Assembly: GCF_004010195.1 (NCBI RefSeq)
Contig: NC_057718.1
Coordinates: 8,414,494-8,478,493, forward strand
DNA from: Chiloscyllium plagiosum
Lineage: Eukaryota
Direction of reading: 5' to 3'
Length of the DNA: 64,000 nt
Shown here: piece after piece, positions 6,052-58,690 of the stretch
Position numbering within the stretch: the first letter of the stretch is position 1
Layout of the letters: each line of letters starts with the position of its first letter
Position numbers and translations under genes: made by a program
Notes under the pieces: generated by a model
The model's input: only the letters and a program-made list of their open reading frames with translations
What the model was told of the DNA's origin: nothing
Databases searched by the model: none

Positions 6052-6422
6052 TCACGGGCTGGTCAAGTTACCCAGTCTCCTGCAAAGGAGCTCAAAGACG
6101 TTTGCAGTACACAGCAGAAAAATGATAGCAATGAAGCTGTATATGGCACTGAGGGGTATGGTCTTCTCAAAGTGCTCAGAGACCATACACTTGGTGACGT
6201 TAAAATGCTTGTCAAGGGATGAGGCATTGCACCGGAAGTTCCACCTGAACTGGAACCCAAAAAGATGACTGAAGCCGGTGCCTTGAAGATCATCCTAGAC
6301 AGGACAGATGCAGGAGATGGTAGAGGCTGGCCTCTGGAGGATCAGTGATGTGGCAAGCAGCGTGGAGATGCAAAACTACTCTGAGGAATAGAACAGAGAC
6401 CAGCCATAAAGCCCAAAAACAC
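6052..6422 (-). pseudogene. GJE1: Connexin 23 (GJE1) pseudogene, coding exon 3
   Basis: After the ttttgcccag acceptor: ..FWALWLVSVLFLRVVLHLHAAC / frameshift / ILQRP..TAG.. SHLFGFQFRWNFRCNASSLDKHFNVTKCMVSEHFEKTIPLSAIYSFIAIIFLLCTANVFELLCRRLGNLTSP*. Matches GJE1 motifs VFWALQLV, HLYAAC, ILQKP, HLFGFQ and KCMVPEHFEKTI. Confidence 0.92.
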
Positions 6423-6739
6423 CTGGGCAAAAGATTTTAAAGAATCATTTGGGTTTTTTTTTAACCAAAAACTTGTGGAGTTTTCCAGCTCCACTACACA
6501 TACAAAAACTGAGCAAAGAGAATTCAATCGATGGATATTCACAAAACTAAGTAATGACAGACATTGACACTGGCATGGGTAAGGGGAGAAAGTCAGGAAC
6601 TGAGGACTGAGTTATCTGATCAGCTTTGATCATACCGAATGTGATGGTAGGCTTGAAGGGCTAACTCCAGCTTTATTTGTGTTTAATAGAACTTCAGGAA
6701 TGAAGAAGGGCTTATGCCCGAAACGTCGATTCTCCTGTT

Positions 6740-7015
6740 CCATTCAGCCCACTGAGTCCACACCAACCTTCCGAAGGCAATCCTACCCAGAGTCACCCTA
6801 TACCTTTGACCACTAACCCACCTAGCCTGCACATCCCTGAACACTATGGACAATTTTAGCATGCCTAATCCACCAGGATGCACATCTTTCGATTGAGAGA
6901 GGAAACACGCGGGCATGTGCAAACTCCACACAGGCAGTCCCCTGAGGCCGGTATTGAACCCAGGCCCCTGGTGCTGGGAGGCAGAAGTGCTAACCACTGA
7001 ATCACTCTGCCACCT
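6740..7015 (-). mobile_element. HE1-like SINE
   Basis: Reverse complement of the 3817 family. Confidence 0.8.
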
Positions 7016-7614
7016 CTTCTATTAGCGCAATTCAAGTACTTTGAGCCATTCGTAATTACTCTAAACCAGTAAAATCCACATAAATGTAATCCTGCTTAGA
7101 ACTTTTCTTTTAATTGGGATTACTGTAAGCTTATGTTACTGGACCAGCAATCCAGAGAGCTGGACAAATGATCTAGAGACATGAGTTCAAATTGCACCAC
7201 AGCTGCTGGGGACTTTCAATGCAATTGGTTAAATAAACCTGGACTAAAAGGCTAATGTTGGGAAATAGAGACCATGAAAGAAGCAGATGCCATAAAAGAC
7301 TAGTTCCCAAAACCCTCTGTCCTTCCCCAGTCAAGTTTATATGTGGCCCCATACCTACAATGATAAGAGTCACTTCTAACTGCTCTCTGTAACAGTTGAG
7401 TAAAGCCTTCAGTTCAGTGACTGATTCACCTCTAACTCCTCAAGAGTAATTAGAGATGGCCAATAAACAAGGGCCTGGTCAACAATGCATGCTTCCCACA
7501 AGTGACCAGACCAACTGTTTTGAGAAGCAATATAAGTTGAAATGACAACTTAGCTCCAATCTGTGGAGACTTCCTGAGGTTGTACAGGGAAAAGAAAGAC
7601 TCACATTTACATGG

Positions 7615-8400
7615 CCAGAGTCAGATGACACCTGGTTATAGTCCAACAGGTTTATTTGAAATCACAAGTTTTCGGAGTGCGGCTCCTTCATCAGGTAAAG
7701 TGAAGAGAAACATACTGGCACAGAATTTGTAGGCAGAGACAATAAAATATCATGTACGTGGTGTGAATGGAGTGTCGCCAGGCTGAATAACAAGAACATG
7801 TAGGTGTCAGATGATGTGAGCTGAAAATGTGTTGCTGGAAAAGCGCAGCAGGTCAGGCAGCATCCAGGGAACAGGAGAATCGACGTTTCGGGCATAAGCC
7901 CTTCTTCAGATGATGTGAGTAAAATGTCATCAGCTGAAGGGATTAGTAGCAAGTGAATGGGTGACCTATGATCTGAATAATTGAGGCAGAGAGATAATTA
8001 GAAAAAATGTAAAACAAGGTGGTGCTGGAGACAAACCAAATGGCTGAAATAACATAGTAGGTGTAAGAGTCACAGGCTGAGGGTCTAACCAAAATAACAG
8101 GTAACCCAAGACTGTACAAACTAATTACGGTATAGAGATCATAACAAGTTATCAAGGTGATGGTGTCACTTATTATTCAGCCTTTTGACATTCCAATCAC
8201 ACCATTTGTACCATCTTTTGAGCTCTCTGTTTATGAATTCTGTCCAAGTATACTTCTCTTCACTTCACCTGACGAAGACACAACACTCCGAAAACTTGTG
8301 ATTACAAATAAACCTGTTGGACTATAACCTGGTGCCGTGTGACCTCTGACCTTGTCCACCCAAGTCCAACATTGGTACCTCCACATCATCACATCTTCCA
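7615..8400. mobile_element. Penelope family C fold-back element (similar ones at ~33935-34380, ~35450-36480, ~52376-52750, ~61545-61685)
   Basis: Inverted termini GGTTATAGTCCAACAGGTTTATTT / AAATAAACCTGTTGGACTATAACC; body homologous to 24160-24600. Confidence 0.78.
7878..7910 (-). ncRNA. Minimal hammerhead ribozyme core (family A)
   Basis: CTGAAGA-a-gggc-ttat-gccc-GAAAC-GTC. Confidence 0.6.
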
Positions 8401-8637
8401 TGATCTCAGGGAATTCCAAAGTGCTTACAGCCAATAATATAACATTTCACATGCTGTTGTGGTGGAAACTTATGGAAATGAAAATGTCAATTTGTGCACA
8501 GCATGCTCCAAAATATGTTTAAAAAAACGCACATCTCTAAGAAGTATCGCTTTATGGATGCACCTACTATGACTCTTCAGCAGTGCGCTCAGATCTTTTA
8601 CATTTGCCTGAGAGTGTAGATGGGGACTTGGTTAATC

Positions 8638-8950
8638 ACAGAATCCCTATAATATGGAAGCAGGCCATTCAGCCCATGCTGACCCTCCAAAGAACATGCT
8701 ACCCAGACCCACCCAATCCTTATAACCCTGCATTTCCCATGGTTAATCCACACCTCCCTGGACAGAATGGGCAATTTAGCATGGTCAATCCACCTAACCT
8801 GCACATCTTGGACTCTGAAGGAAACTGGAGGAAACCCACGCAGACACGGGGAGAATGTGCAAGCTCTGCACAGACAGCCACCCAAGGCTGGGATTGAACC
8901 TGGGTCCCTGGCGCTGTGAGGCAGCAGTGCTAACCACTGAGTGTCCGTGC
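8638..8950 (-). mobile_element. HE1-like SINE
   Basis: Reverse complement of the 3817 family. Confidence 0.82.
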
Positions 8951-10081
8951 CATTTCTTTTTCACTCTGAGGTCTTTAAAGGTCTGCTACATAAAGTGGCA
9001 TCTCCCACAATGCAGCATTCCAACAGCTAATATATACCGGTGTGTTAATTCAGATCACTTATAAACCCCAACTACAACAAGATGTTACTTAGACACTGAG
9101 TGAAGCTGCCGGCCTAATAAATCAGTGGGCATGAACTCCTAAACCAGGGGTACAAGTTCAGACTTGTTCCCTTCACTGTCATGGAGTCTAAATCCTGGAG
9201 CTCCCTCCCTAACAGCAATGAGGGTGTCTCAGCACCAAATGGACCGGAACGTTCAAGGTGGCTATTCAAGGGCAACTGGGGATGGGCACTAACTGCAGGT
9301 TCAGTCAGCGATGCTGACATGCCTTGAATGAATTTTTTAAAAGATACTGGTAGTTGATTTAAAAACGACAATGAAACTGTTGAATTCACAAAGGAATTTG
9401 TAAACAAATATTTTGTAAAGAAGAAACAAATATCCTTCAGGAAAGGCATATAATGTAATTTTGTCTGACCACTATGTGGCTCCAATCTCCACATTGATCC
9501 TGTTGACTCTTAACTGTGGTTGAGCAATCTATACAATATTGAAATAAAGTCAGAGAATGCTGGAGAGACTCAGCAACATCCTGTAGGGAGAGAGATGGAT
9601 TTAACATTTTGACTTCAATGTAAGTCAAACATTGAGTGCCCAGTTCTGAAGAAGGGTCATATCAGACTTAACATGTTGACTCTGTTTCTCTCTCCATAGA
9701 TGTTGACTGACCTGCTGAGTTTCTCCAGCATTCTCTGTGCTTGCTTCAGATATTGCCTTTATTTAAAAGAGAGAAAATAAGAAGTGGAAGCAGTAGACCA
9801 TTCAGCCCCTCAAGTCTGTTCCATCATTTAATACAATCATGACTGATCTCACCTTAGTATCAACTCCACTTTCCTGCCCATTCCCATCAACCCATTATTA
9901 ACTAAACATCTACTCCTTCCTTAAAATTAATCAGTGAATAGGATTAAAAGAGGATTAAGTGCCCACATCTTAAACGTGGAAAACAAACAGGTTATAAAAT
10001 TCATAGAGGGAGCAAACCACCACACAAGGTATATTTAGTCTTTAATAACACACATTGTAAATCTGATTCATCGCCTTTAAC

Positions 10082-10266
10082 CGGGGGAAGGTGATAGGCT
10101 GGAAATGATTGTAACAGAAGAGGTTTAACTGTTTCCTGTCTGGATCACAGTTGAAATAGAGAGCTTCAATCCTGTACACAGCAAACCTCAGCACCCCCAG
10201 GAAGAACATCAGAACTGAGCCACCAAACAGGGTACAGAACTGGCCAATCGCTGTTAGAGGCCTGAG
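10082..10266 (-). pseudogene. GJE1: Connexin 23 (GJE1) pseudogene, coding exon 2
   Basis: After the ttgtttag acceptor it translates as LRPLTAIGQFCTLFGGSVLMFFLGVLRFAVYRIEALYFNCDPDRKQLNLFCYNHFQPITFP, colinear with GJE1 (..PPTVIGQFHTLFFGSVRMFFLGVLGFAVYGNEALHFSCDPDKREINLFCYNQFRPITPQ). The donor (GTTAAA) is weak and 2 nt past the expected boundary. Confidence 0.92.
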
Positions 10267-10319
10267 CTAAACAAGGAGATGGAAACAGCTACGTTACAGA
10301 ATTTACTTTCACAAAACTA

Positions 10320-11062
10320 TGTTACAACATGGGGTAAACCCTTTTGCTAATTTAAACCAGCAAAACTGAAAAGATTTGACCCAGTGCGGCCATCTGTTAA
10401 AATTCGAGAGGCAAGAACTATCCCAGCGGCAAATATTTAAAGTAAAAATTAACAACTTTATTCTGTAAGTTTAACAGAGAATATTAACTAACAACTATCT
10501 ACAACTCCTTTCTCTTAAACCTATCTTTTACCTCCCACTCTACAATACTAGTCCAATAAAAAATCCCAATTACAATTTACGAAAAATAATCACTTTTCAA
10601 AACTAATCAGAATTTATGTGCAAGGTTACTGAATGAAACACAAACAAATGAAAAACAGAATACAGAATAACTTAATGTATCCAAAAACCTAACAGATTTT
10701 CCCAACCTAATGATGCTATTCCAAATACTTATGATAATCCCCATAAACCCTCGGCAAAAAAAGGAAAAATCCAACATAGGGTCTTGCAAGAGAGATATCG
10801 GAGAGAGGGAGGACCAGCGTGGGCTGGCTTCTTTGGTTCCAGCAGCTTCAGAACTGACTGTTTGCTAATGCCAAACCAAACCAGAGAAAGGCTGAGCTGG
10901 GAGGACTGGCCATTCACCTTTCATTGTACAATGCCTTTTTTAAAACTTAAGAGCCTTTTCAAGTGGATCAAACCCAGACATTTTGGAACCTGTGTCTTTG
11001 CAACCTCCTTAAAAAAGAAACCAAGGACAACATAACCTTGGTAAAGGAGCATCATCATCACA
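10320..11062 (-). mobile_element. Solo LTR related to the Gmr1-like LTRs, in GJE1 intron 1
   Basis: Starts TGTTACAACATGGGGTAAACCC and shares blocks (AAAGTAAAAATTAACAA..ACAGAGAAT..TAACTAAC) with 15737 and 18405; ends ..CATCACA; no internal genes. Confidence 0.75.
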
Positions 11063-11212
11063 ATTGTGATCATCATTGAGAGAGGAGACAGGTCGGACTG
11101 TGGAAACTCCAGAGGAATTTCCCATCATCCACCACGGGTATGGTCATCGTGAGCATCCTGTTCAACCATCTCCTCCCAGGAGCTGAAAAGCTTCTCCCCG
11201 AGTATCAACGTA

Positions 11213-11800
11213 ATTCTTTGAAGGTTGCATCGCATGTAGACAGGATAGTTGAGAAGGTATTTAGCATGCTTGCCTTCATTGCTCAGACCTTTGAGTAAAG
11301 GAGTTGGGACGGTACATTGAAGTGGTGCAGGACACCATGGTGAGGTCTCTTCTGGAGTACTGTGTACAGTTCCGGTTGCCCTACTATAGGAAGGTTATTA
11401 TTAAATTGGAGGGGGCTCAGAAAAGATTTACCAGGATGTTGCCGGGAATGAAGTGTTTAAATTATAAGGATAGGCTCGATGGGCCGGGATGTTTTTCATT
11501 GGAGCGTCGTAGTTTGAGGGGTGACCTTATGAAGGTTGATAAAATCATGAGTTTTAAAAGGGGCCTGAGGGGCAACCTTTTCACACAAATGATGGTTCAC
11601 ATGTGGAATGAACTGCCAGAGGAAGCGGTAGATTCAGGAACAGTTAAAACATTGGAAACAAATTTGGATAGGTACATGAATAGGAAAGGTTTGAGGAGAT
11701 ATGAGCCAAACACAGGAAAGTGAGGCTAGTTTGGGAAACTCAGTCAGCATGTACGAATTGGACCGAATGGCCTGTTTCCACACTGTGAGACTCTCTAAAG
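11213..11800 (+). mobile_element. CR1 LINE 3' fragment in GJE1 intron 1
   Basis: ORF 11304-11723 (LEYCVQF..QKRFTRMLPG..RGDL..WNELPEE). Confidence 0.85.
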
Positions 11801-11867
11801 AGGAACAATGGACATGAACTAATGGGTATTGAAGGCATTTGATATGCCAGTTGTTTTTCATACTTAC

Positions 11868-11906
11868 ACATCCTTCATAGAAATTTCAGATTTATTTCAA
11901 GAGCAT
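11868..11906 (-). pseudogene. GJE1: Connexin 23 (GJE1) pseudogene, coding exon 1
   Basis: Minus strand reads ATG CTC TTG AAA TAA ATC TGA AAT TTC TAT GAA GGA TGT|gtaagta = MLLK*I*NFYEGC, matching the GJE1 N-terminus MSLNYIKNFYEGC (recalled from the mammalian protein). Canonical donor, two in-frame stops. Confidence 0.9.
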
Positions 11907-16797: not shown

Positions 16798-17117
16798 GAA
16801 TTTTTTTAGATTAGATTACTTACAGTGTGGAAACAGGCCCTTCGGCCCAACAAGTCCACACAGACCCGCCGAAGCGTAACCCACCCATTCCCCTACATTT
16901 ACCCCTTTACCTAACACTACGGGCAATTTAGCATGGCCAATTCACCTGACCTGCACATCTATGGACTGTGGGAAGAAACCGGAGCACCCGGAGGAAACCC
17001 ACGCAGACATGGGGAGAATGCGCAAACTCCACACAGTCAGTCGCCTGAGTTGGGAATTGAACCTGGGTCTCTGGCGCTGTGAGGCAGCAGTGCTAACCAC
17101 TGTGCCCCGTGCCGCCC
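16798..17117 (-). mobile_element. HE1-like SINE interrupting the Gypsy RT
   Basis: Splits the RT sequence TFHR|LMNRVV; full SINE head and tail present. Confidence 0.88.
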
Positions 17118-18382
17118 GTCTATGGAATGTGGTGGGTGCGTTCTTCATTCCAAAGGGCATCACTTTAAACTGATATAGTCCATTTGAGGTCACAAACACA
17201 GACATTTCTTTCACCGTCTCTGATAAATATACTTGCCAGTAACCCTGAATTAAGTCCAATTTGCTGATGTAACTGGCTTGTCCAACTTTCTCGATACAGT
17301 ACTCTAATCTAGGAATTGGATATGAGTCGGATTTTGCAATGGTGTTGACCTTCCGATAATCCACTCAGAATCGTTGAGTCCTGTCCGGTTTGAGAACTAA
17401 GACAGTTGGCAAACTCCACTCACTCTGGCTTGGTTTGATGATGTCCTCATCAAGCATGGCCTCCACCTCCATCTGGACCTCTCTGGCTTTGCGAGGATTA
17501 AGTCAATAGGGGTGTTATTTTATCGGAACAGTATTCCCTACGTCTACTTTATGTACAATAGCATTAGTCCTCCCCATATGATCCTTACATATGTCCTTGT
17601 ACTGCAGTCACAAATATTTCAACTCTGTTCTCTGCTCCTGAGACAGATAGCTTACTAATCTATCCTCAAGCACTTTTTTATTTTTTAATCTATTTTTGAG
17701 GCACTTCAAAATCCATACCATCTGGATTTGATTCCTCATTCTGCGGGCAGTAACTAACACCTGTTTCTCCAGTTCTTTCTCTCTGGTATAATACAGTTTC
17801 AACATGTTCACATAATATACCTGATACCTTTTTTTTCCCTATCTGGCACCTTTCCTAAATAGTTCACCTGATTCAACATTTTCTCTCTCTCTTTGCTCAG
17901 GCAAGAACTTTCTCTCTCCCTCCTTTTCTTCTCACTCTATCTTTCTCTTTCTCTCTCCCTTTGTTTACCTTCTAACTCCATTTTCCTCAAGTGTAATCTA
18001 AGCTTTTCTACCTCTACTGTACTTGTCTGTGTCTCTGACAGACCTAAGTGTTTGAGTAACTCCCTTACCATTTCAACTTTACTTTTGTCCTTGGTTAAAC
18101 CCAAATCTAACTTCTTTGCGAATTCTAAAAGTATGGCCTTTTTCTTTCCTTCTAAACTTGCTTGGCAAATTTGAGAATCATCTTCAAATCCCAGAACCTC
18201 TTTAGCAATCTTAAGAGTCATTTCTCTCACTTTTCATTTAGTCAGCCACAAGTCACTGCAATTAAACAAATTGTCTCACCTACATTTTATTTAAAGATCT
18301 AGGACACTAACCTGCAAGTGTTTAAATCTGTTGTGATTTTTCATACCCCCAAATCTATTCAAATCTGTCAAAACCAGTTCAG

Positions 18383-26419: not shown

Positions 26420-27690
26420 AACACAAAGAACAAAGAACAAATAAAATATACAGCCCAGGAACAGGCTTTTCCGCCATCGAAGCCTGTGCTAATCTAAATC
26501 TACTGTCTAAACTTGTTGCCCAATTCCTAAGCATCTGTATCCCTCTGCTCCCCACCTACTCATGCATCTATCTAGACACACCTTAAATGCATCTACCGTA
26601 CCTGCATCTACCACCTCTGCTAGCAATGCATTCCAGGCACCTACTGCCCTCTGTGTGAAGTACTTTCCATGTGTATCCCCCTTAACCTTTTATCCTCTCA
26701 CCTTGAACATGTGACCTCTCGTTATTGAATCCCTCACCTTGGGAAAAAGCTTATCTCTATCTACCCTGTCTATACCCTTCATGACTTTGTAGACCTGAAT
26801 CAGATCCCCCCTCAATCTCCTACTCAAACTCTCTTTGTAGCTAGCACCTTCCATACCAGGGAACATCCTCTTAAACCTTCTCTGCACCCTTTCCAAAGCG
26901 TCCACATCCTTTTGATAATGCGGTGACCAGAACTGTATACAATATTCTAAATGCAGCCGAACCAATGTCTTGTACAATTTTAACATGACCTGCAAGCTCT
27001 TATACTCAATACCCCGTCCGATGAAGGCAAGCATACCATATGCCTTCTTGACCACTCTATCAACTTGTGCAGCCACCTTCAGGGTACAATGGACCTGAAC
27101 TCCCAGATCTCTCTGCCCATCAACTTTTCCCAAGGCTCTTCTGTTTACAGTATAGTTCGCTCTAGAATTAGACTTCCCAAAATGCATCACCTCACATTTG
27201 CCCGCATCGAACGCCATTTGCCACTTCTCTGCCCAACTTTCCAGTCTTTTCATAATCTCTTGTATTCTTTGACAGTCCTCTATGCTTTCTGTTATTCCAC
27301 CAATCTTTGTGTCATCTACAAACTTACTGATCAGACCACCAATGCCCTCTTCCAGATTTTTTATGTATATCACAAACAGCAGTGACCACAGAACTGATCC
27401 CTGTGGAACACCATTGGTTGCCTTTCTCCATTTTGAGAAACTCTCTTCAACTACTACTCTCTGTCTCCTGTTGCTCAACCAGTTCTTTATCCTCCTAGCT
27501 AGAAATCATGTGACTTCACTTTCTCCATTAGTTTACCATGGGGAACCTTATCAAATATCTTGCTAAAGTCCATGTATATGACATCTACAGCCCTTCCTTC
27601 ATTTAACAACTTGGTCACTTCCTCAAAGAACTCTATTCAGTTGGTAAGGCACGATCTCCCCCTGCACAAAATCATGTTGCCTATCACTGA
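26420..27690 (-). mobile_element. CR1 LINE RT fragment
   Basis: 262-aa ORF with GVPQGSVL, KFVDDTKI and LVRLHLEYCIQFWSP. Confidence 0.93.
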
Positions 27691-50720: not shown

Positions 50721-51074
50721 GCAGTCTCAGGTAATCTCCAAGCCCTGCGGCACTTATTTTTAACTTTTGTTTGTAGATGATTTGGGAATATTTAGAGAAT
50801 GAAATGTGAACGTCTGGTGGTTGATATTCTTGTGAACGTGTTCCCAGAATTTCGGTTGACTTCTCTTCTTCTTCTTTCTTTCAGGGAACTTGTTGCGAAA
50901 GAACAGTGACGCAACTTGCTGATTATCCAGATAATTGACTGTCTGGAAAGGAGCTGACCTCACGAGGTTGAGGTAGTAGGTGGGGGTGGAGTTGAGACCA
51001 TTGTAGCGAAAGCATAAGGCATCCTTGTCCAGCATTTATTTTCCCCTTGGGACAGGAGCCAACGCTTCAGGAGG

Positions 51075-51478
51075 ATGGATGGTGAACTGTTCGACAACGG
51101 TACTTTTCTTTCACTCAACGGAGCAACTTGGAACAACTTTACAGAGGAGATAGTCTACCTTGACACCGCGTTCTTTGTGATCCGATGCATCATCCCCCCC
51201 ATCTACCTCCTCCTCATCACAGTGGGCTTGCTGGGGAACATCACTTTGGTCAGGGTCTTTGTAGCTAACAGCGCTATGAGAAGTGTGCCTAACATTTTCA
51301 TTTCCAGTTTAGCAGCTGGTGACCTGCTGCTCCTGGTCACTTGTGTCCCAGTGGACGCTGCCAGGTATTTCTTTGAGGATTGGATCTTCGGCTCACTGGC
51401 TTGTAAGCTCATCCCCATGATCCAACTCACCTCAGTGGGAGTGTCAGTGTTCACCCTGACGGCTCTCAGTGCAGACAG
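51075..51478 (+). CDS. NMBR: Neuromedin B receptor (bombesin receptor family GPCR), first coding exon (TM1-TM3); downstream exons not found in the window
   Basis: The ORF contains [96 protein letters not shown] and RYFF favour NMBR over GRPR/BRS3. Phase-2 donor AG|GTAAGT at 51479 splits the R of DRY. GJE1 as neighbour supports the assignment. Confidence 0.93.
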
Positions 51479-54049
51479 GTAAGTGGGACATCTAGTCAGT
51501 TCCATCTGCAATTGTCTAGTGTTGACTTTATCAGACACTTTCTGTTTGTTTTGTATATATGTATCTACCTGTCTTCTGGTCTATCAATCTATTAACTTAC
51601 CAAATTCCCCTTCTATCTGTTGGTGTATTCTTCTAGATATTCATCCCAGTTATAATAAAATGAAGATAATTGAATGCAGTAATCCATTTTTAGTAAATAG
51701 TAGCTCTAAGCACTCAAAATTTGAAAAGAAATGGAATTTGTAAGAAAGCAGACAAATTACATCCTTTCAGAGAGATTGAGGCACTTCAGTTTCTTTACCA
51801 GGGTGAAGGGATTTTTTTTTCTAATAGACAACCCTCAAATGTATGGAATGATCTTTACATTCATCACATTGGGAGCTTCAATGATGAAAGAAATAATGTT
51901 CTCATATTCCTTGCTATCACTCCCCTCCCCCCCCCCCCCCAAACCTCTCAAGCTGTCTGTATGATACAATTAGAACAAAGATAGTGGACATGGAATGACA
52001 GTACAATCTAAAATCCCATGCAGTACAGCAGTGCAAAGTTTGAATAATTGACCTTTCTCATAGGATGTGCATTCATTGGTTGAAAAATATATGAATACTA
52101 GCTATTATAATTGTTAAAAGATAAATACATTGTGGCATGGCAATTGCCTCACTCAGTTAGTATGAAAAAGGGCTTATGCCCGAAACGTCAATTCTCCTGT
52201 TCCCTGGATGCTGCCTGACCTGCTGCGCTTCTCCAGCAACACATTTTCAGCTCTGATCTCCAGCATCTGCAGACCTCACTTTCTCCTCACTCAGTTAGTA
52301 GAACCTCTAAAGAACTCAGAAAGAAGTTCTGAAGAATGGTTACTGGTCTTGAAATATTAATTCCATTTTCTCTCAATGTGGAGGTGCCAGTGTTAGACTG
52401 GAGTTGACAAAGTCAGAAGTCACATGACACCAGTTTAAAGTCCATCAGGTTGATTTAACATCACACGCTTTAGTTGCTATTCCGCTATTGACACCTCACT
52501 CACACTGTTTGACACTTTTGATCACCTCCAAAGACTTGTTATCCAGCCTGTTGACACTCCCCTCACACCATTTGTACTATCATTTGATGCTCTTAATGAC
52601 CTGGAATTACTTTGCAATGATCTCTCAGCCTGTAAATCCTCTGACTATGCCCTTCCATCCACTTCACCTGATGAAGGAGCACCATTTCAAAAGCTTTCGA
52701 TTTCAAATAAAATCTATTGGACTATAACTTGGTGTCATGTGACCTCTGACTGTTTTCTCTCAACAGATGCTGCCAGACCTGCAGAGTTTCTCCAGCCCTT
52801 TCTGTTTTCATTTTGGGAAAAAAAGGCAGTTTCATTATGTACCCTCTGCAGGAGTATATGGGTGGGGGGAGGGGGTCATTGCAACATGAAATGTTAACCC
52901 TGCAATTTTGCAGATGCTGTCTGACCTGATGAGCATTTCCAGCTTTTTCTATTTTTATTGTCAACTTTCTGTTCCAAAGCCTTTTCAAATCCTACTCCTG
53001 TAACTATGCTTTTGGTCACCTCTAAACATATTTTTATTAATAAGAAGCTTTACTGCTGCCTATTAAAGATCTGGGGACATTTAATTGCAATCGCAGCATG
53101 ATATAAATGCAAGTTGCATATCTTCACATGTGCAATAAATATTCAGTAGATGCCCCACTGGGACACCAGGTGTATTTGTGCCAGTATGTTGTTCTGTCAT
53201 ATCTCTAACAGCACTTTGTAATATACTCATCACATTGTTAAGATAAATTCCCCATTTTTGCGTTCTTCCTCCATTCTTTGAGATGTTGATTCATCTGTCA
53301 GCTCCTCTCGTGCAATTATTCTGCATAAGCATCACCTCCAAAAGCCCTAGGCTATTTGAATATAGGAAGCTCCTTGCAAACAAACCTAATTCAAACCATC
53401 AAACACTGGAAGGGAATCTACTATCCTTACCCATTCTGAAATAAAGTGTCTTCAAGCTTCTAGCAATGTGATAGAAACTTAAGTGACTTGTGAAATCGTC
53501 TGGAACTCATTCAGCTCTATTGAAAATAAAAGATATCTTATCACTATCTTGTCAAGGGAAATTAGGAATGGCACAATAAGTGCTGATTTTTCTGTGATGC
53601 CCAAATGTGACATTTAAACTTAAAAAAGTGCATGTATTCATTGAACTGGGTGGGGTGAGGGGAGGGGGTGCTTTGTGGGTTGTGGTGCTTTGCTGACACC
53701 ATTGTTCCATGCAGTACAATTGACAGCTAGGTCTAGAGGACACCATCTTTATACATTGCAACGATACTCTTTTCAAAGCTTAGCCAGTAGCTTTGTGGAT
53801 TAGATATCCCTATCAACCAAAACAGTGAACAAATCCTTTGTGCATTTATGTGACATTCCTCTGGTGCATTTAAGGGCAAATGAAGTAAGCACACATGGAA
53901 GGATGGAAAGATGGAAATTCTGATCGGGTTAAATGGAGAAGAGGTGGGTGTAAGTTGTGGGAAGCATAAACACATGAATGTATTGAACTGAATGGCTTTT
54001 TTGTGATCAGTTCATTGATTTTACATAATATCAAGTGAGATCTTTGATT

Positions 54050-55949: not shown

Positions 55950-58690
55950 AAAAATTGCAAAAATGATTCTAGATAGGAGCAAAAGTAACAGGGTAGTTAT
56001 GGGGGACTTTTAACTTTCCAAATATTGACTGGAAATGCTATAGTTTGAGTATTTCAGATAGGTCAGTTTTTGTCCAATATGTGCAAGAGAGTTTCCTGAC
56101 CCAATATGTAGATAGGCCAACATGAGGCAAAATCATATTGGATTTGGTACTGGATAATCAACCAGGCCAGGTGTTAGATTTGGAAGTAGGTAAGCACTTT
56201 GGTGATAATGACCACAATTCAGTTATGTTTACTTTAGCGATGGCAAGGATTAGGTGTACAGCAGGGCAAGAGTTACAGCTGGGGGAAAGGCAATTATGAG
56301 GCAATTAGGCAAGATTTAGGATGCATAAGATGGGGAAGGAAACTACAGGGAATGGGCACAATTGAAATGTGGAGCTTGTTCAAGGAACAGCTACTGCATG
56401 TTTTTCTCTCCACGCTTCAGGCTCACTGCCTTTATTCCTGATGAAGGGCTTTTGCCTGAAACGTCGATTTCAAAGCTCCTTGGATGCTGCCTGAACTGCT
56501 GTGCTCTTCCAGCACCACTAATCCAGATACTGCATGTCTTTGATAAGTATGTACCTGTCAGGTAGGGAGGAAGTGGTCGAGCAAGGGAACTGTGGTTTAC
56601 TAAGGAAGTTGACTCTCTTGTCAAGAGGAAGTAGGAGACTTATGTTAAGATGAGACGTGAAGGCTCAGTTAGGGTGCTTGAGAGATACAAGTTAGCCAGG
56701 AAAGACCTAAAGTGAGAGCTAAGAAGAGCCAGGAAAGGACATGAGAAGTCTTTGGCAGGTAGGATCAAGGAAAACCCTGAAGCTTTCTATAAAAATGTCA
56801 GGAATAAAAGAATGACGAGAGTAAGATTAGGGCCAGTCAAGGACAGTAGTGGGAAGTTGTGTGTGGAGTCCAAAGAGATAGGAGAGAGGCTAAATAAATA
56901 TTTTTCGTCAGAATTCACATTGGAAAAAGACAATGTTGTCGAGGAGAATACTGAGACACAGGCTACGAGACGAGTCGGGATTGAGGTTCACAATTTTGGA
57001 ACTTGTCAAAATAGATAAATGCCTGGACTGGATGGGATTTATCCTAGGATTTTCTGGGAAGCTAGGGACAAGATTGCAGAGTCTTTGACTTTGATCTTTA
57101 CGTTGTCATTGTCCACAGGAATAGTGCCAAAAGACTTGAGGATAGCAAAGGTTGTTTCCTTGTTCAAGAAGGGGAGTAGAGACAACCCTGGTAATTATAG
57201 ACCAGTGAGCCTTACTTCGTTGTGGGTAAAGTGTTGGAATGGATTATAAGAGGTAGGATTTATAATCATCTAGAAAGGAATAATTTGATCAGTGATAGTC
57301 AACATGGTTTTGTGAAGGGTAGGTCGTGCCTCACACACCTTGTTGAGTTCTTTAAGAAGATGACCAAACAGTTGGCAAGGGCAAAGTGTTGATGTGGTGG
57401 ATTTGGATTTCAGTAAAGCATTTGATAAAGTTCCCCATGGTGAGCTATTGCAGAAAATACGGAAGCATAGGATTAAGGGTGATTTAACGGTTTGGATCAG
57501 AAATTGGTTAGCTGTAAGAAGACAGAGGGTGGTTGTTGATGGAAAATGTTTATCCTGGAGTTCAGTTACTATTGGTGCACTGTAAGGATCTGTTTTGGGG
57601 CCACTGCTGTTTGTCATTTTTATAAATGACCTGGACGAAGGTGCAGAAGGTTGGGTTAGTAAATTTGCGGATGACACTTAAGTCAGTGGAGTTATAGATA
57701 GTGCTGAAGGATGCTGCAGGTTACCGAGGAACATAAATAAGCTACAGAGCTGGCCTGAGAGGTGGCAAATGGAGCTTATTGTGGAAAAGTGTGAGGTGAT
57801 TCACTTTGGAAGGAGTAACAAGAATGTAGAGTACTGGGCTAATGGTAAGATCTTTGGTAGTGTGGATGAGCAGAGAGATCTCAGTGTCCATGTGCATAGA
57901 TCCCTGAAAGTTGCCATCCAAGTTGATAGAGCTGTTAAGAAGGCATACAGAGTATTCGGTTTTATTGAAAAGGAATTGAGTTTTGGAGCCATGAGATCAT
58001 GTTGCAGCTGTACAAAATACTGGTGCAGCTGCATTTGGAGTATTGTACAGTTCTGGTCGCAGCATTATAGGAAGGATGGGGAAGCATTGGAAAGAGTGCA
58101 GAGGAGATTTACCAGAATGTTGCCTGGTATGGAGAGATGGTCTTATGAGGAAAGGCTGAGGGCTTTGAGGCTGTTTTCATTGGAGAGAAGAAGGTTGAGA
58201 GGTTATTTAATCGAGACATACAAGATGATCAGAGGATTAGATAAGGTGGACTGTGAGAGCCTTTTTCTTCAGATGGTGATGAAAATGTGTTGCTGGAAAA
58301 GCGCAGCAGGTCAGACAGCATCCAAGGAGCAGGAGAATCGATATTTCAGGCATATTTTCAGCTCTGATCTCCAGCATCTGCAGTCCTCACTTTCTTCAGA
58401 TAGTGATGGCTAGCACGAGGGGACATAGCTTTAAATTGAGGGGTGATGGACATAGGACAGATATCAGAGGAAGTTCTTTACTCAAAGAGTAGTAGGGGTA
58501 TGGAACGCGCTGCCTACAACGTAGTAGACTCACCAATTTTAAGGGCATTTAAATGATCATTGGATAAACATGTGGACGATAATGGAATAGTGTAAGTTCA
58601 ATGAGCTTTAGATTTGTTTCACAGGTAGGTGCAACTTTGGGGGCCGAATGACCTGTACTGCACTGAAATGTTCCATGGTCTATGTTTTAT
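55950..58690 (+). mobile_element. 5'-truncated CR1 LINE (~2.7 kb, endonuclease tail plus RT) inserted into a SINE
   Basis: GDFNFPNIDW, PGLDGIYPR, NYRPVSLTS, DFSKAFDKVPH, KFADDT. ATGTCA is duplicated at 55945 and 58689, with SINE halves on either side. Confidence 0.92.
56434..56470 (+). ncRNA. Minimal hammerhead ribozyme motif (family A), sense strand of NMBR intron 1
   Basis: attc-CTGATGA-a-gggc-tttt-gcct-GAAAC-GTC-ga. Confidence 0.65.

What the first reader, a model, noticed from the sequence alone, without database searches (positions are those of the whole stretch)
6052..11906. Hidden unitary pseudogene of lens connexin 23 (GJE1): apparent independent gene loss in a shark
Seen: three minus-strand exons with splice signals that together span the whole GJE1 protein. 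Exon 1 has TAA and TGA at codons 5 and 7, exon 2 has a weak, shifted donor, and exon 3 has indels and an internal TAG. Only two cysteines per extracellular loop are present (NCDP, FCYN; RCNA, KCMV). Established: GJE1/Cx23 is the atypical four-cysteine, multi-exon, lens-expressed connexin, lies beside NMBR in mammals and is reported to be non-functional in humans. Inference: this is the orthologous locus (introns retained, syntenic), inactivated independently in this lineage, which could relate to lens biology or visual ecology.
Basis: partly seen in the sequence, partly recalled or inferred. Interest (0 to 1): 0.85.

Follow-up and report, generated by a model that had tools for sequence, protein, structure and literature searches.

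The report
Broken lens connexin gene in shark
This shark carries only a decayed, non-coding remnant of the lens gap-junction gene GJE1 (connexin 23) at its normal chromosomal position, a lineage-specific gene loss shared with the epaulette shark but not with other shark orders or rays.

Summary
Three minus-strand exons (11906-11868, 10266-10082, 6422-6052) match the whole of shark and ray GJE1/Cx23. They lie between NMBR exon 1 (51018-51479, +) and VTA1 (about 115 kb to the left), as in mammals.

The copy is dead:
- TAA and TGA at codons 5 and 7.
- +2 nt at the end of exon 2, with a weak GTTAAA donor, and +1 nt at the start of exon 3.
- A net 11-nt frameshifting deletion.
- An internal TAG.
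- Two in-frame deletions in TM3.
- Changes at 43 of 145 positions that are invariant in 10 intact chondrichthyan GJE1 proteins.

The 3.56-Gb assembly holds no other GJE1 copy.

The loss is not private to this species. The Hemiscyllium ocellatum "GJE1" protein model is a patched model that shares both TM3 deletions and 30 derived residues. Lamniform, carcharhiniform, heterodontiform and hexanchiform sharks and batoids keep intact, 85-99% identical proteins.

Verdict: a real unitary pseudogene, at least family-wide and possibly order-wide. It is a new member of a known kind and of moderate interest.

The parts
11868..11906 (-). GJE1 pseudo-exon 1 (39 nt, codons 1-13). Carries TAA at 11894-11892 (codon 5) and TGA at 11888-11886 (codon 7).
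11862..11867 (-). Donor site of intron 1, GTAAGT, which is consensus.
10082..10266 (-). GJE1 pseudo-exon 2 (185 nt, against 183 nt in intact orthologues). It encodes TM1 and extracellular loop 1 with two Cys. The frame is open, with 2 extra nt near the 3' end (PITFP against PITPQ). The acceptor is ...CTCCTTGTTTAG.
10076..10081 (-). Weakened donor site of intron 2, GTTAAA.
6052..6422 (-). GJE1 pseudo-exon 3 (371 nt including the TGA stop, against 396 nt expected). It has one extra base at 6422 and a net 11-nt loss around 6346-6352 (codons 98 and 101-103 lost, one stray base), which shifts the frame. It also has TAG at 6297-6295 (codon 120) and in-frame losses of codons 123-124 (junction 6289|6288) and 131-133 (junction 6271|6270) in TM3.
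51018..51479 (+). Open frame holding exon 1 of the neighbouring NMBR gene, head-to-head with GJE1. This is a synteny anchor.
   Evidence: 7tm_1, 3e-20. (best PDB match Neuromedin-B receptor at 2.4e-50, against GRPR at 8e-39 and BRS3 at 1.5e-33).
16945..17472 (-). Retroelement fragment (reverse transcriptase). Its 5' part (17472-17386) is the counterpart of the non-connexin first 17 or so residues of the Hemiscyllium GJE1 model.
   Evidence: P0001 residues 1-27, E 0.006. (RVT_1, 4e-12).

Best explanation
This is the orthologous GJE1 (connexin 23) locus of a hemiscylliid shark, decayed into a unitary pseudogene. The gene kept its three-exon layout and its place between NMBR and VTA1. It can no longer make a connexin. 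Translation from the ancestral ATG stops at codon 5. Even if that were bypassed, the exon-3 frameshift ends the frame after TM2, and the downstream frame has a TAG and lacks five TM3 codons.

Selective constraint was lost long before this shark and Hemiscyllium diverged. Most substitutions and both TM3 deletions are shared, so the loss is at least family-wide (Hemiscylliidae).

Shown here: homology, exon structure, lesions, synteny, absence of a second copy, accelerated protein divergence, and lesions shared with the Hemiscyllium model.

Inferred: that the exon-2 insertion and the frameshift are also shared with Hemiscyllium, the old age of the loss, and that the remnant has no function.
For: 1. 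Homology. tblastn of skate, ray and shark GJE1 finds all three exons, with E 4e-30 for exon 3 and 2e-24 for exon 2. Exon 1 matches 10 of 15 residues and ends exactly at a GTAAGT donor. The closest database proteins are all named gap junction epsilon-1.

2. Lesions, mapped codon by codon against intact horn-shark GJE1 (P0127): two nonsense codons, +2 and +1 insertions, a net -11 frameshift, a TAG, and -6 and -9 deletions.

3. Relaxed constraint.
- The window copy differs from each of 10 intact chondrichthyan proteins at 53-70 of 163-193 aligned positions (63.2-68.9% identity).
- All 45 pairs of the intact proteins are 85.0-99.0% identical.
- 43 of 145 positions invariant in those 10 are changed.
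- 17 of 75 positions at least 98% conserved across 64 vertebrate GJE1 proteins are changed.

4. Unitary status. Genome searches with P0001 found 2 matches, both here. The search with intact P0127 found 46 matches at E<=1. Three are pieces of this locus, at 55-71% identity. The other 43 are at most 36% identical. The one I inspected, and the best of them, is an ordinary six-cysteine single-exon connexin.

5. Synteny. NMBR exon 1 lies 39 kb away on the opposite strand. A VTA1 domain exon lies on the same strand at G000:C9:8299433-8299570. Cattle gene order is NMBR, GJE1, VTA1, ADGRG6 (table passage in PMC11927911).

6. Sharing with an independent assembly. The Hemiscyllium ocellatum model P0001 starts with non-connexin residues, reads through the exon-2 donor (LKAMNQIYN, identical to the window's intron translation), skips TM2, and has the same degenerate TM3. 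At 141 compared positions, 30 are shared derived, 7 are derived in both but different, 5 are derived in the window only and 7 in Hemiscyllium only. Five codons are deleted in both.

7. The gene is intact elsewhere: Carcharodon, Cetorhinus, Heterodontus, Scyliorhinus, Heptranchias and six batoids.
Against: - There is no read-level confirmation of any lesion.
- No nucleotide sequence of any relative was available. Sharing with Hemiscyllium is therefore read from a predicted protein, and no dN/dS could be computed.
- The exon 1 match is short (E 0.29 on its own in the window).
- The Hemiscyllium locus is annotated as protein-coding by its source. Taken at face value, that would argue for some retained product.
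- The single exon pieces fall below Pfam's Connexin gathering score (15.6 and 22.4 bits against a cut-off of 31.3).
- There are no expression data.
Confidence: 0.9

Rival explanations
1. The lesions are assembly or sequencing errors, and the gene is intact in the animal.
For: The assembly is fragmented (101,977 contigs). Single-base indels in T or C runs (the +1 at 6422, the +2 in exon 2) are typical error types.
Against: - There are seven separate lesions of different kinds, including two substitution-type stops, a TAG and multi-codon deletions.
- 43 of 145 otherwise invariant residues are replaced, which errors do not produce.
- The same TM3 deletions and 30 of the substitutions recur in an independently assembled genus.
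Confidence: 0.02
2. The locus still makes a product. One option is a truncated or re-framed connexin-like protein, as in the 188-aa Hemiscyllium model. Another is a regulatory RNA driven from a retroelement-derived first exon.
For: The Hemiscyllium source annotates a coding model whose first residues match a retroelement fragment upstream of the gene. Exon 2 is still open, and the donor-1, acceptor-2 and acceptor-3 signals are good.
Against: - In this window the frame used by the Hemiscyllium model is cut by TAG at 6297-6295.
- That model lacks TM2 and five TM3 codons, so it cannot fold as a four-helix connexin.
- The two species differ at 19 of 141 positions in the shared parts (7 derived differently, 5 window only, 7 Hemiscyllium only), including a Cys-to-Arg and a Tyr/stop difference. 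This fits drift.
Confidence: 0.06
3. This is a decayed duplicate, and the true orthologue is intact elsewhere.
For: The assembly may be incomplete.
Against: The remnant sits at the ancestral position between NMBR and VTA1 with its introns retained. No other GJE1-like sequence exists in 3.56 Gb.
Confidence: 0.02

Closest known systems
Intact GJE1/Cx23 of other sharks and rays (Heterodontus P0127, Carcharodon P0125, Cetorhinus P0122, Scyliorhinus P0128, Heptranchias P0004, Amblyraja P0002 and others)
   Same: Same orthogroup. Three coding exons are split after codons 13 and 74. There are two Cys per extracellular loop, and the C-terminus and stop position are the same.
   Different: Those proteins are open and 85-99% identical to each other. 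This copy is 63-69% identical and carries stops, frameshifts and deletions.
Hemiscyllium ocellatum 'gap junction epsilon-1 protein' model (P0001, 188 aa)
   Same: 90% identical to the window across exon 2. It has the same TM3 deletions, 30 shared derived residues and the same PITFP insertion signature.
   Different: Its source annotates it as coding. It has Tyr where the window has TAG. Its exon 1 state is unknown. The model borrows a retroelement-like start and reads intron sequence.
Suggested inactivation of Cx23 in primates, and the possible pseudogene state of one sturgeon gje1 ohnologue
   Same: Lineage-specific erosion of the same gene. Primates: passages in PMC5267330 and PMC10598745. 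Sturgeon A ohnologue 'might be a pseudogene': passage in PMC7914757.
   Different: The primate case rests on a splice and stop ambiguity and is disputed, since 21 'potentially functional' human connexins are counted. The sturgeon keeps a second copy. Here the only copy is heavily decayed.

Membership tests
GJE1 / connexin 23 orthogroup | Best sequence similarity is to GJE1 and not to other connexins. | tested here: met
   the hits that carry a descriptive name are named gap junction epsilon-1, CXE1 or connexin 23; this locus is 55-71% identical to horn-shark GJE1, while every other connexin locus in the genome is at most 36% identical.
GJE1 / connexin 23 orthogroup | Three coding exons, where most connexins have one, with introns after codon 13 and codon 74. 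| tested here: met
   the exon borders carry GT/AG signals at the homologous codons. Exon sizes of 39 and 183 nt in other fishes come from PMC7914757 Tables S5 and S6. The three-exon structure is stated in a passage of PMC10598745.
GJE1 / connexin 23 orthogroup | Four rather than six extracellular-loop cysteines. | tested here: met
   FNCDP...FCYN and RCNA...KCMV align with the two-Cys loops of intact GJE1. The paralogue in L006 shows the usual CX6CX3C and CX4CX5C patterns.
GJE1 / connexin 23 orthogroup | Position between NMBR and VTA1. | tested here: met
   The mammalian gene order comes from a table passage in PMC11927911.
GJE1 / connexin 23 orthogroup | An open reading frame encoding four transmembrane helices. 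| tested here: not met
   three stop codons, a frameshift and five TM3 codons deleted.
Unitary pseudogene | Disabling lesions at the orthologous locus, with no functional copy elsewhere in the genome. | tested here: met
   This is limited to what is assembled.
Unitary pseudogene | Loss of purifying selection. | tested here: met
   at protein level only: 43 of 145 chondrichthyan-invariant positions are changed. No nucleotide dN/dS was possible.
Unitary pseudogene | Lesions verified in independent reads or individuals. | not testable with these tools
The only indirect support is sharing with the Hemiscyllium model.
Unitary pseudogene | Not expressed as a functional mRNA. | not tested
   No RNA data could be laid on the locus.

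The most novel reading that the evidence does not exclude
GJE1 was inactivated early in the carpet-shark lineage (Orectolobiformes), well over 100 million years ago. A whole shark order, the whale shark included, would then build its lens without connexin 23, while every other sampled shark order, the rays and a chimaera keep a nearly invariant protein.

Supporting hints:
- Decay before the Hemiscyllium split is roughly 3-8 times the decay after it.
- There is no whale-shark gje1 entry in the connexin catalogue of PMC7914757 (0 hits for 'Rt-gje1').
- No orectolobiform GJE1 protein other than the patched Hemiscyllium model turned up.
Probability: 0.4. Interest if true: 0.45.

Novelty: new member of a known kind. 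Interest (0 to 1): 0.35.

Why it matters
GJE1/Cx23 is among the most conserved connexins. Shark and ray proteins are about 86-94% identical. It is abundant in mouse lens fibres, yet knockout mice have clear lenses, and its status in primates is disputed.

A clean, old, natural knockout in a shark family, with intact orthologues in sister orders, gives a comparative system for asking what Cx23 does in the lens and what compensates for it.

It also flags a public gene model (Hemiscyllium GJE1) that is probably a mis-annotated pseudogene. A published connexin catalogue entry for this locus also needs the qualifier 'pseudogene'.

Tried and rejected
- Read check. The look-up of sequencing runs listed 24 runs. 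Eight runs of organism A hold 0.41-0.68 of the sampled words, and twelve runs of organisms B and C hold 0.14-0.16.
- Pfam on single exon pieces gave only sub-threshold Connexin hits. The two 5' exon-3 frames gave none.
- The search of protein representatives with P0001 returned 44 hits. Apart from P0001 itself, none exceeded 72% identity. No further eroded copy from another species surfaced.
- The search of earlier findings returned nothing in three look-ups.
- The search for NMBR exons 2 and 3 covered 42 open frames from the + strand between 51480 and 64000. None had a 7tm_1 hit, and two had only RVT_1 fragments. The rest of NMBR lies outside the window.
- Sonntag et al. 2009 (PMC2719720) is not held. 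Its claims are cited second-hand from passages in PMC5267330 and PMC10598745.
- dN/dS and lesion dating with orthologous nucleotides were left out. The only orthologous DNA seen was printed in a paper's supplement, and that may not be typed into tools.
- Searches for prior print: 'GJE1'+'shark' gave 3 papers. 'Cx23'+'pseudogene' gave 14 papers, seen as listing only, none on sharks by title or abstract. 'connexin'+'gene loss'+'Chiloscyllium' gave 1 paper, whose connexin passage is unrelated. None describes a shark GJE1 pseudogene.
Full report
OBSERVATION

The minus strand of window 6052-11906 holds three pieces that together cover the whole GJE1 (connexin 23) protein. I ran tblastn with thorny-skate (P0002), electric-ray (P0003) and sevengill-shark (P0004) GJE1. 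The results were:
- Exon 2 at 10266-10090: 74.6% identity to skate, E 2e-24, no stop.
- Exon 3 in two frames: 6433-6341 in frame -1 and 6345-6058 in frame -2, with a joint E of 4e-30.
- Exon 1 at 11906-11865: MLLK*I*NFYEGC against MSLNYIKNFYEGC.

On its own the exon 1 match is weak (E 0.29). But the back-translated NFYEGC+GT motif occurs once in the window and in none of 100 shuffles. It also ends exactly at a GTAAGT donor.

ANATOMY (codon numbers follow horn-shark GJE1, P0127)

Exon 1 is 39 nt (11906-11868).
- TAA lies at codon 5 and TGA at codon 7.

Exon 2 is 185 nt (10266-10082).
- It follows a good acceptor (CTCCTTGTTTAG).
- The skate, sawfish and sturgeon entries in the tables of PMC7914757 give 183 nt. 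The two extra bases sit just before the donor (PITFP against PITPQ).
- The donor has decayed to GTTAAA.

Exon 3 is 371 nt including the retained TGA stop (6422-6052), against 396 nt expected.
- It begins with one extra base. Together with the +2 of exon 2 this would add one codon.
- It has a net 11-nt loss between codons 97 and 104, which shifts the frame.
- It has TAG at 6297-6295 (codon 120).
- It has in-frame losses of codons 123-124 and 131-133 in the third transmembrane helix.

The two-cysteine loops typical of Cx23 are recognisable: FNCDP and FCYN in the first loop, RCNA and KCMV in the second. Four cysteines and three exons are stated for Cx23 in a passage of PMC10598745.

CONTEXT

- An open frame at 51018-51479 (+) is a rhodopsin-type receptor first exon (7tm_1, 3e-20). 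Its best solved relative is the neuromedin-B receptor (2.4e-50), against GRPR at 8e-39 and BRS3 at 1.5e-33.
- A Vta1-domain exon lies on the minus strand at G000:C9:8299433-8299570, about 115 kb to the left of the window.
- The arrangement is therefore NMBR head-to-head with GJE1, followed by VTA1. This matches the cattle gene list NMBR, GJE1, VTA1, ADGRG6 (table passage in PMC11927911).
- The introns hold SINE-like and LINE-like repeats. Reverse-transcriptase fragments lie upstream.

IS IT THE ONLY COPY?

- The 3.56-Gb assembly was searched with the Hemiscyllium model. It gave 2 matches, both here.
- It was also searched with intact horn-shark GJE1. That gave 46 matches at E<=1. Three are pieces of this locus, at 55-71% identity. 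The other 43 are at most 36% identical.
- The best of those others, on unplaced contig C91282, is an ordinary single-exon six-cysteine connexin.

RELAXED CONSTRAINT

I aligned the conceptual read-through, with X at the stops, to two sets of proteins. One was 10 intact chondrichthyan GJE1 proteins. The other was 54 other vertebrate GJE1 proteins of 200-212 aa. The 54 are the non-chondrichthyan part of the 61 (of 128 stored proteins) that fall in that length range. The other stored proteins were left out as partial or extended models.

| Comparison | Result |
|---|---|
| All 45 pairs of intact chondrichthyans | 85.0-99.0% identical |
| The four galeomorph sharks among themselves | 95.1-99.0% identical |
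| Window copy against each of the ten | 63.2-68.9% identical |
| Window against the chondrichthyan consensus | differs at 61 of 193 aligned positions |
| Positions invariant in all ten | 43 of 145 changed |
| Positions at least 98% conserved across the 64 intact proteins | 17 of 75 changed |

HOW OLD, HOW WIDE?

The closest database protein is the Hemiscyllium ocellatum 'gap junction epsilon-1 protein' (P0001, 188 aa, 90% identical over exon 2). It is not a normal Cx23:
- Its first residues match a retroelement fragment whose counterpart lies at window 17472-17386.
- It reads through the exon-2 donor into LKAMNQIYN, which is identical to the window's intron translation.
- It omits TM2.
- It has the same degenerate, shortened TM3.

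I compared 141 positions. These are exon 2 plus the 3' part of exon 3, at columns invariant in four intact galeomorph sharks. Eleven variable columns were dropped. The counts were:
- 92 ancestral in both.
- 30 shared derived.
- 7 derived in both but different.
- 5 derived only in the window.
- 7 derived only in Hemiscyllium.
- 5 codons deleted in both.

Most of the decay therefore predates the split of the two genera. The stop at codon 120 is Tyr in Hemiscyllium, so that particular lesion is younger or was reverted.

My inference is that the gene died several times longer ago than the split of the two genera, so at least in the hemiscylliid ancestor.

An order-wide loss is possible, but it rests only on absences:
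- The connexin catalogue of PMC7914757 has no whale-shark gje1 entry (0 hits for 'Rt-gje1' in the supplement).
- No orectolobiform GJE1 protein other than P0001 appeared in three protein searches or in the member list of the four clusters looked up.

Intact GJE1 is present in the following groups:
- Lamniformes: Carcharodon and Cetorhinus.
- Carcharhiniformes: Scyliorhinus, and Heterodontiformes: Heterodontus.
- Hexanchiformes: Heptranchias.
- Six batoids.
- A chimaera entry is listed in the paper's Figure S70.

The lineages were checked.

PRIOR KNOWLEDGE

Supplementary Table S6 of PMC7914757 lists a gje1 BLAST match for one shark assembly. It is on chromosome 9, at 8424759-8424583 and 8420712-8420553, with '?' for exon 1. 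These numbers equal the G000:C9 coordinates of exon 2 and of the last 160 nt of exon 3.
- The matched exon-3 stretch is 160 nt, against 389 nt in the skate and sawfish columns. That is the footprint of the decay.
- Neither the table nor the main-text passages I saw call it a pseudogene.

My three searches found no paper describing a shark GJE1 pseudogene.

Background from passages:
- Cx23 transcripts occur in zebrafish and mouse lens.
- Cx23 protein is abundant in mouse lens fibres.
- Inactivation in primates has been suggested (PMC5267330).
- One sturgeon ohnologue may be a pseudogene (PMC7914757).

LIMITS

- No orthologous DNA could be used, so there is no dN/dS and no nucleotide-level mapping of shared indels.
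- There are no expression data.
- Of the paper's supplements I read only one part (part 82) and term hits.

VERDICT

This is a real, syntenic, unitary GJE1 pseudogene, and its decay is shared with Hemiscyllium.
- It is a new example of a known kind of event: lineage-specific loss of a gene already known to be dispensable in mouse.
- It has some value as a natural knockout and as a correction to annotation.
- Confidence in the pseudogene reading is 0.9.
- Probability of an order-wide loss is about 0.4.

Noticed in passing
P0001 (Hemiscyllium ocellatum XP_060686684); counterpart pieces at window 17472-17386, 10266-10055 and 6333-6055: The public 'gap junction epsilon-1 protein' model of the epaulette shark looks like a pseudogene forced into a coding model. 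It has a retroelement-like start, reads intron sequence, lacks TM2 and has a shortened TM3.
   Followed up: partly
One search hit list (P0063, P0067, P0083, P0087, P0095, P0098, P0099, P0102): Eight of the 120 listed GJE1 proteins carry the source label 'LOW QUALITY PROTEIN': a rhinoceros, the dugong, two bats and four birds. This may mean recurrent erosion of GJE1 in tetrapods, or assembly errors.
   Followed up: no
P0077 (human GJE1), residues around the exon 2/3 junction: Human reads PITPQVSFSALQ where all other listed species read PITPQVFWALQ. This fits the splice-site ambiguity described for human Cx23 in PMC10598745.
   Followed up: no
window 51018-51479 (+): NMBR exon 1 is open and strongly conserved (173.5 bits to human NMBR). 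No further NMBR exon lies in the window up to 64000, so intron 1 is longer than 12.5 kb.
   Followed up: partly
L006 1414-2130 (-), which is G000:C91282: An intact 238-aa six-cysteine, single-exon connexin lies on a small unplaced contig. It does not correspond to any placed position in the shark column of Table S6 of PMC7914757.
   Followed up: no
window 6915-7018 and 8855-8958; 7620-7794 / 8169-8343; 6701-6741 / 7868-7908; 11295-11720 (+): Intron 2 holds two SINE-like copies (78% identity), a 175-nt inverted pair and a perfect 41-nt inverted pair. Intron 1 holds a 142-aa LINE-like open frame on the opposite strand, which has no Pfam hit.
   Followed up: no
window 16945-17364 (-), 26693-27505 (-), 57201-57582 (+): Reverse-transcriptase (RVT_1) fragments of retroelements lie in the GJE1-NMBR intergenic region and in NMBR intron 1.
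   Followed up: no
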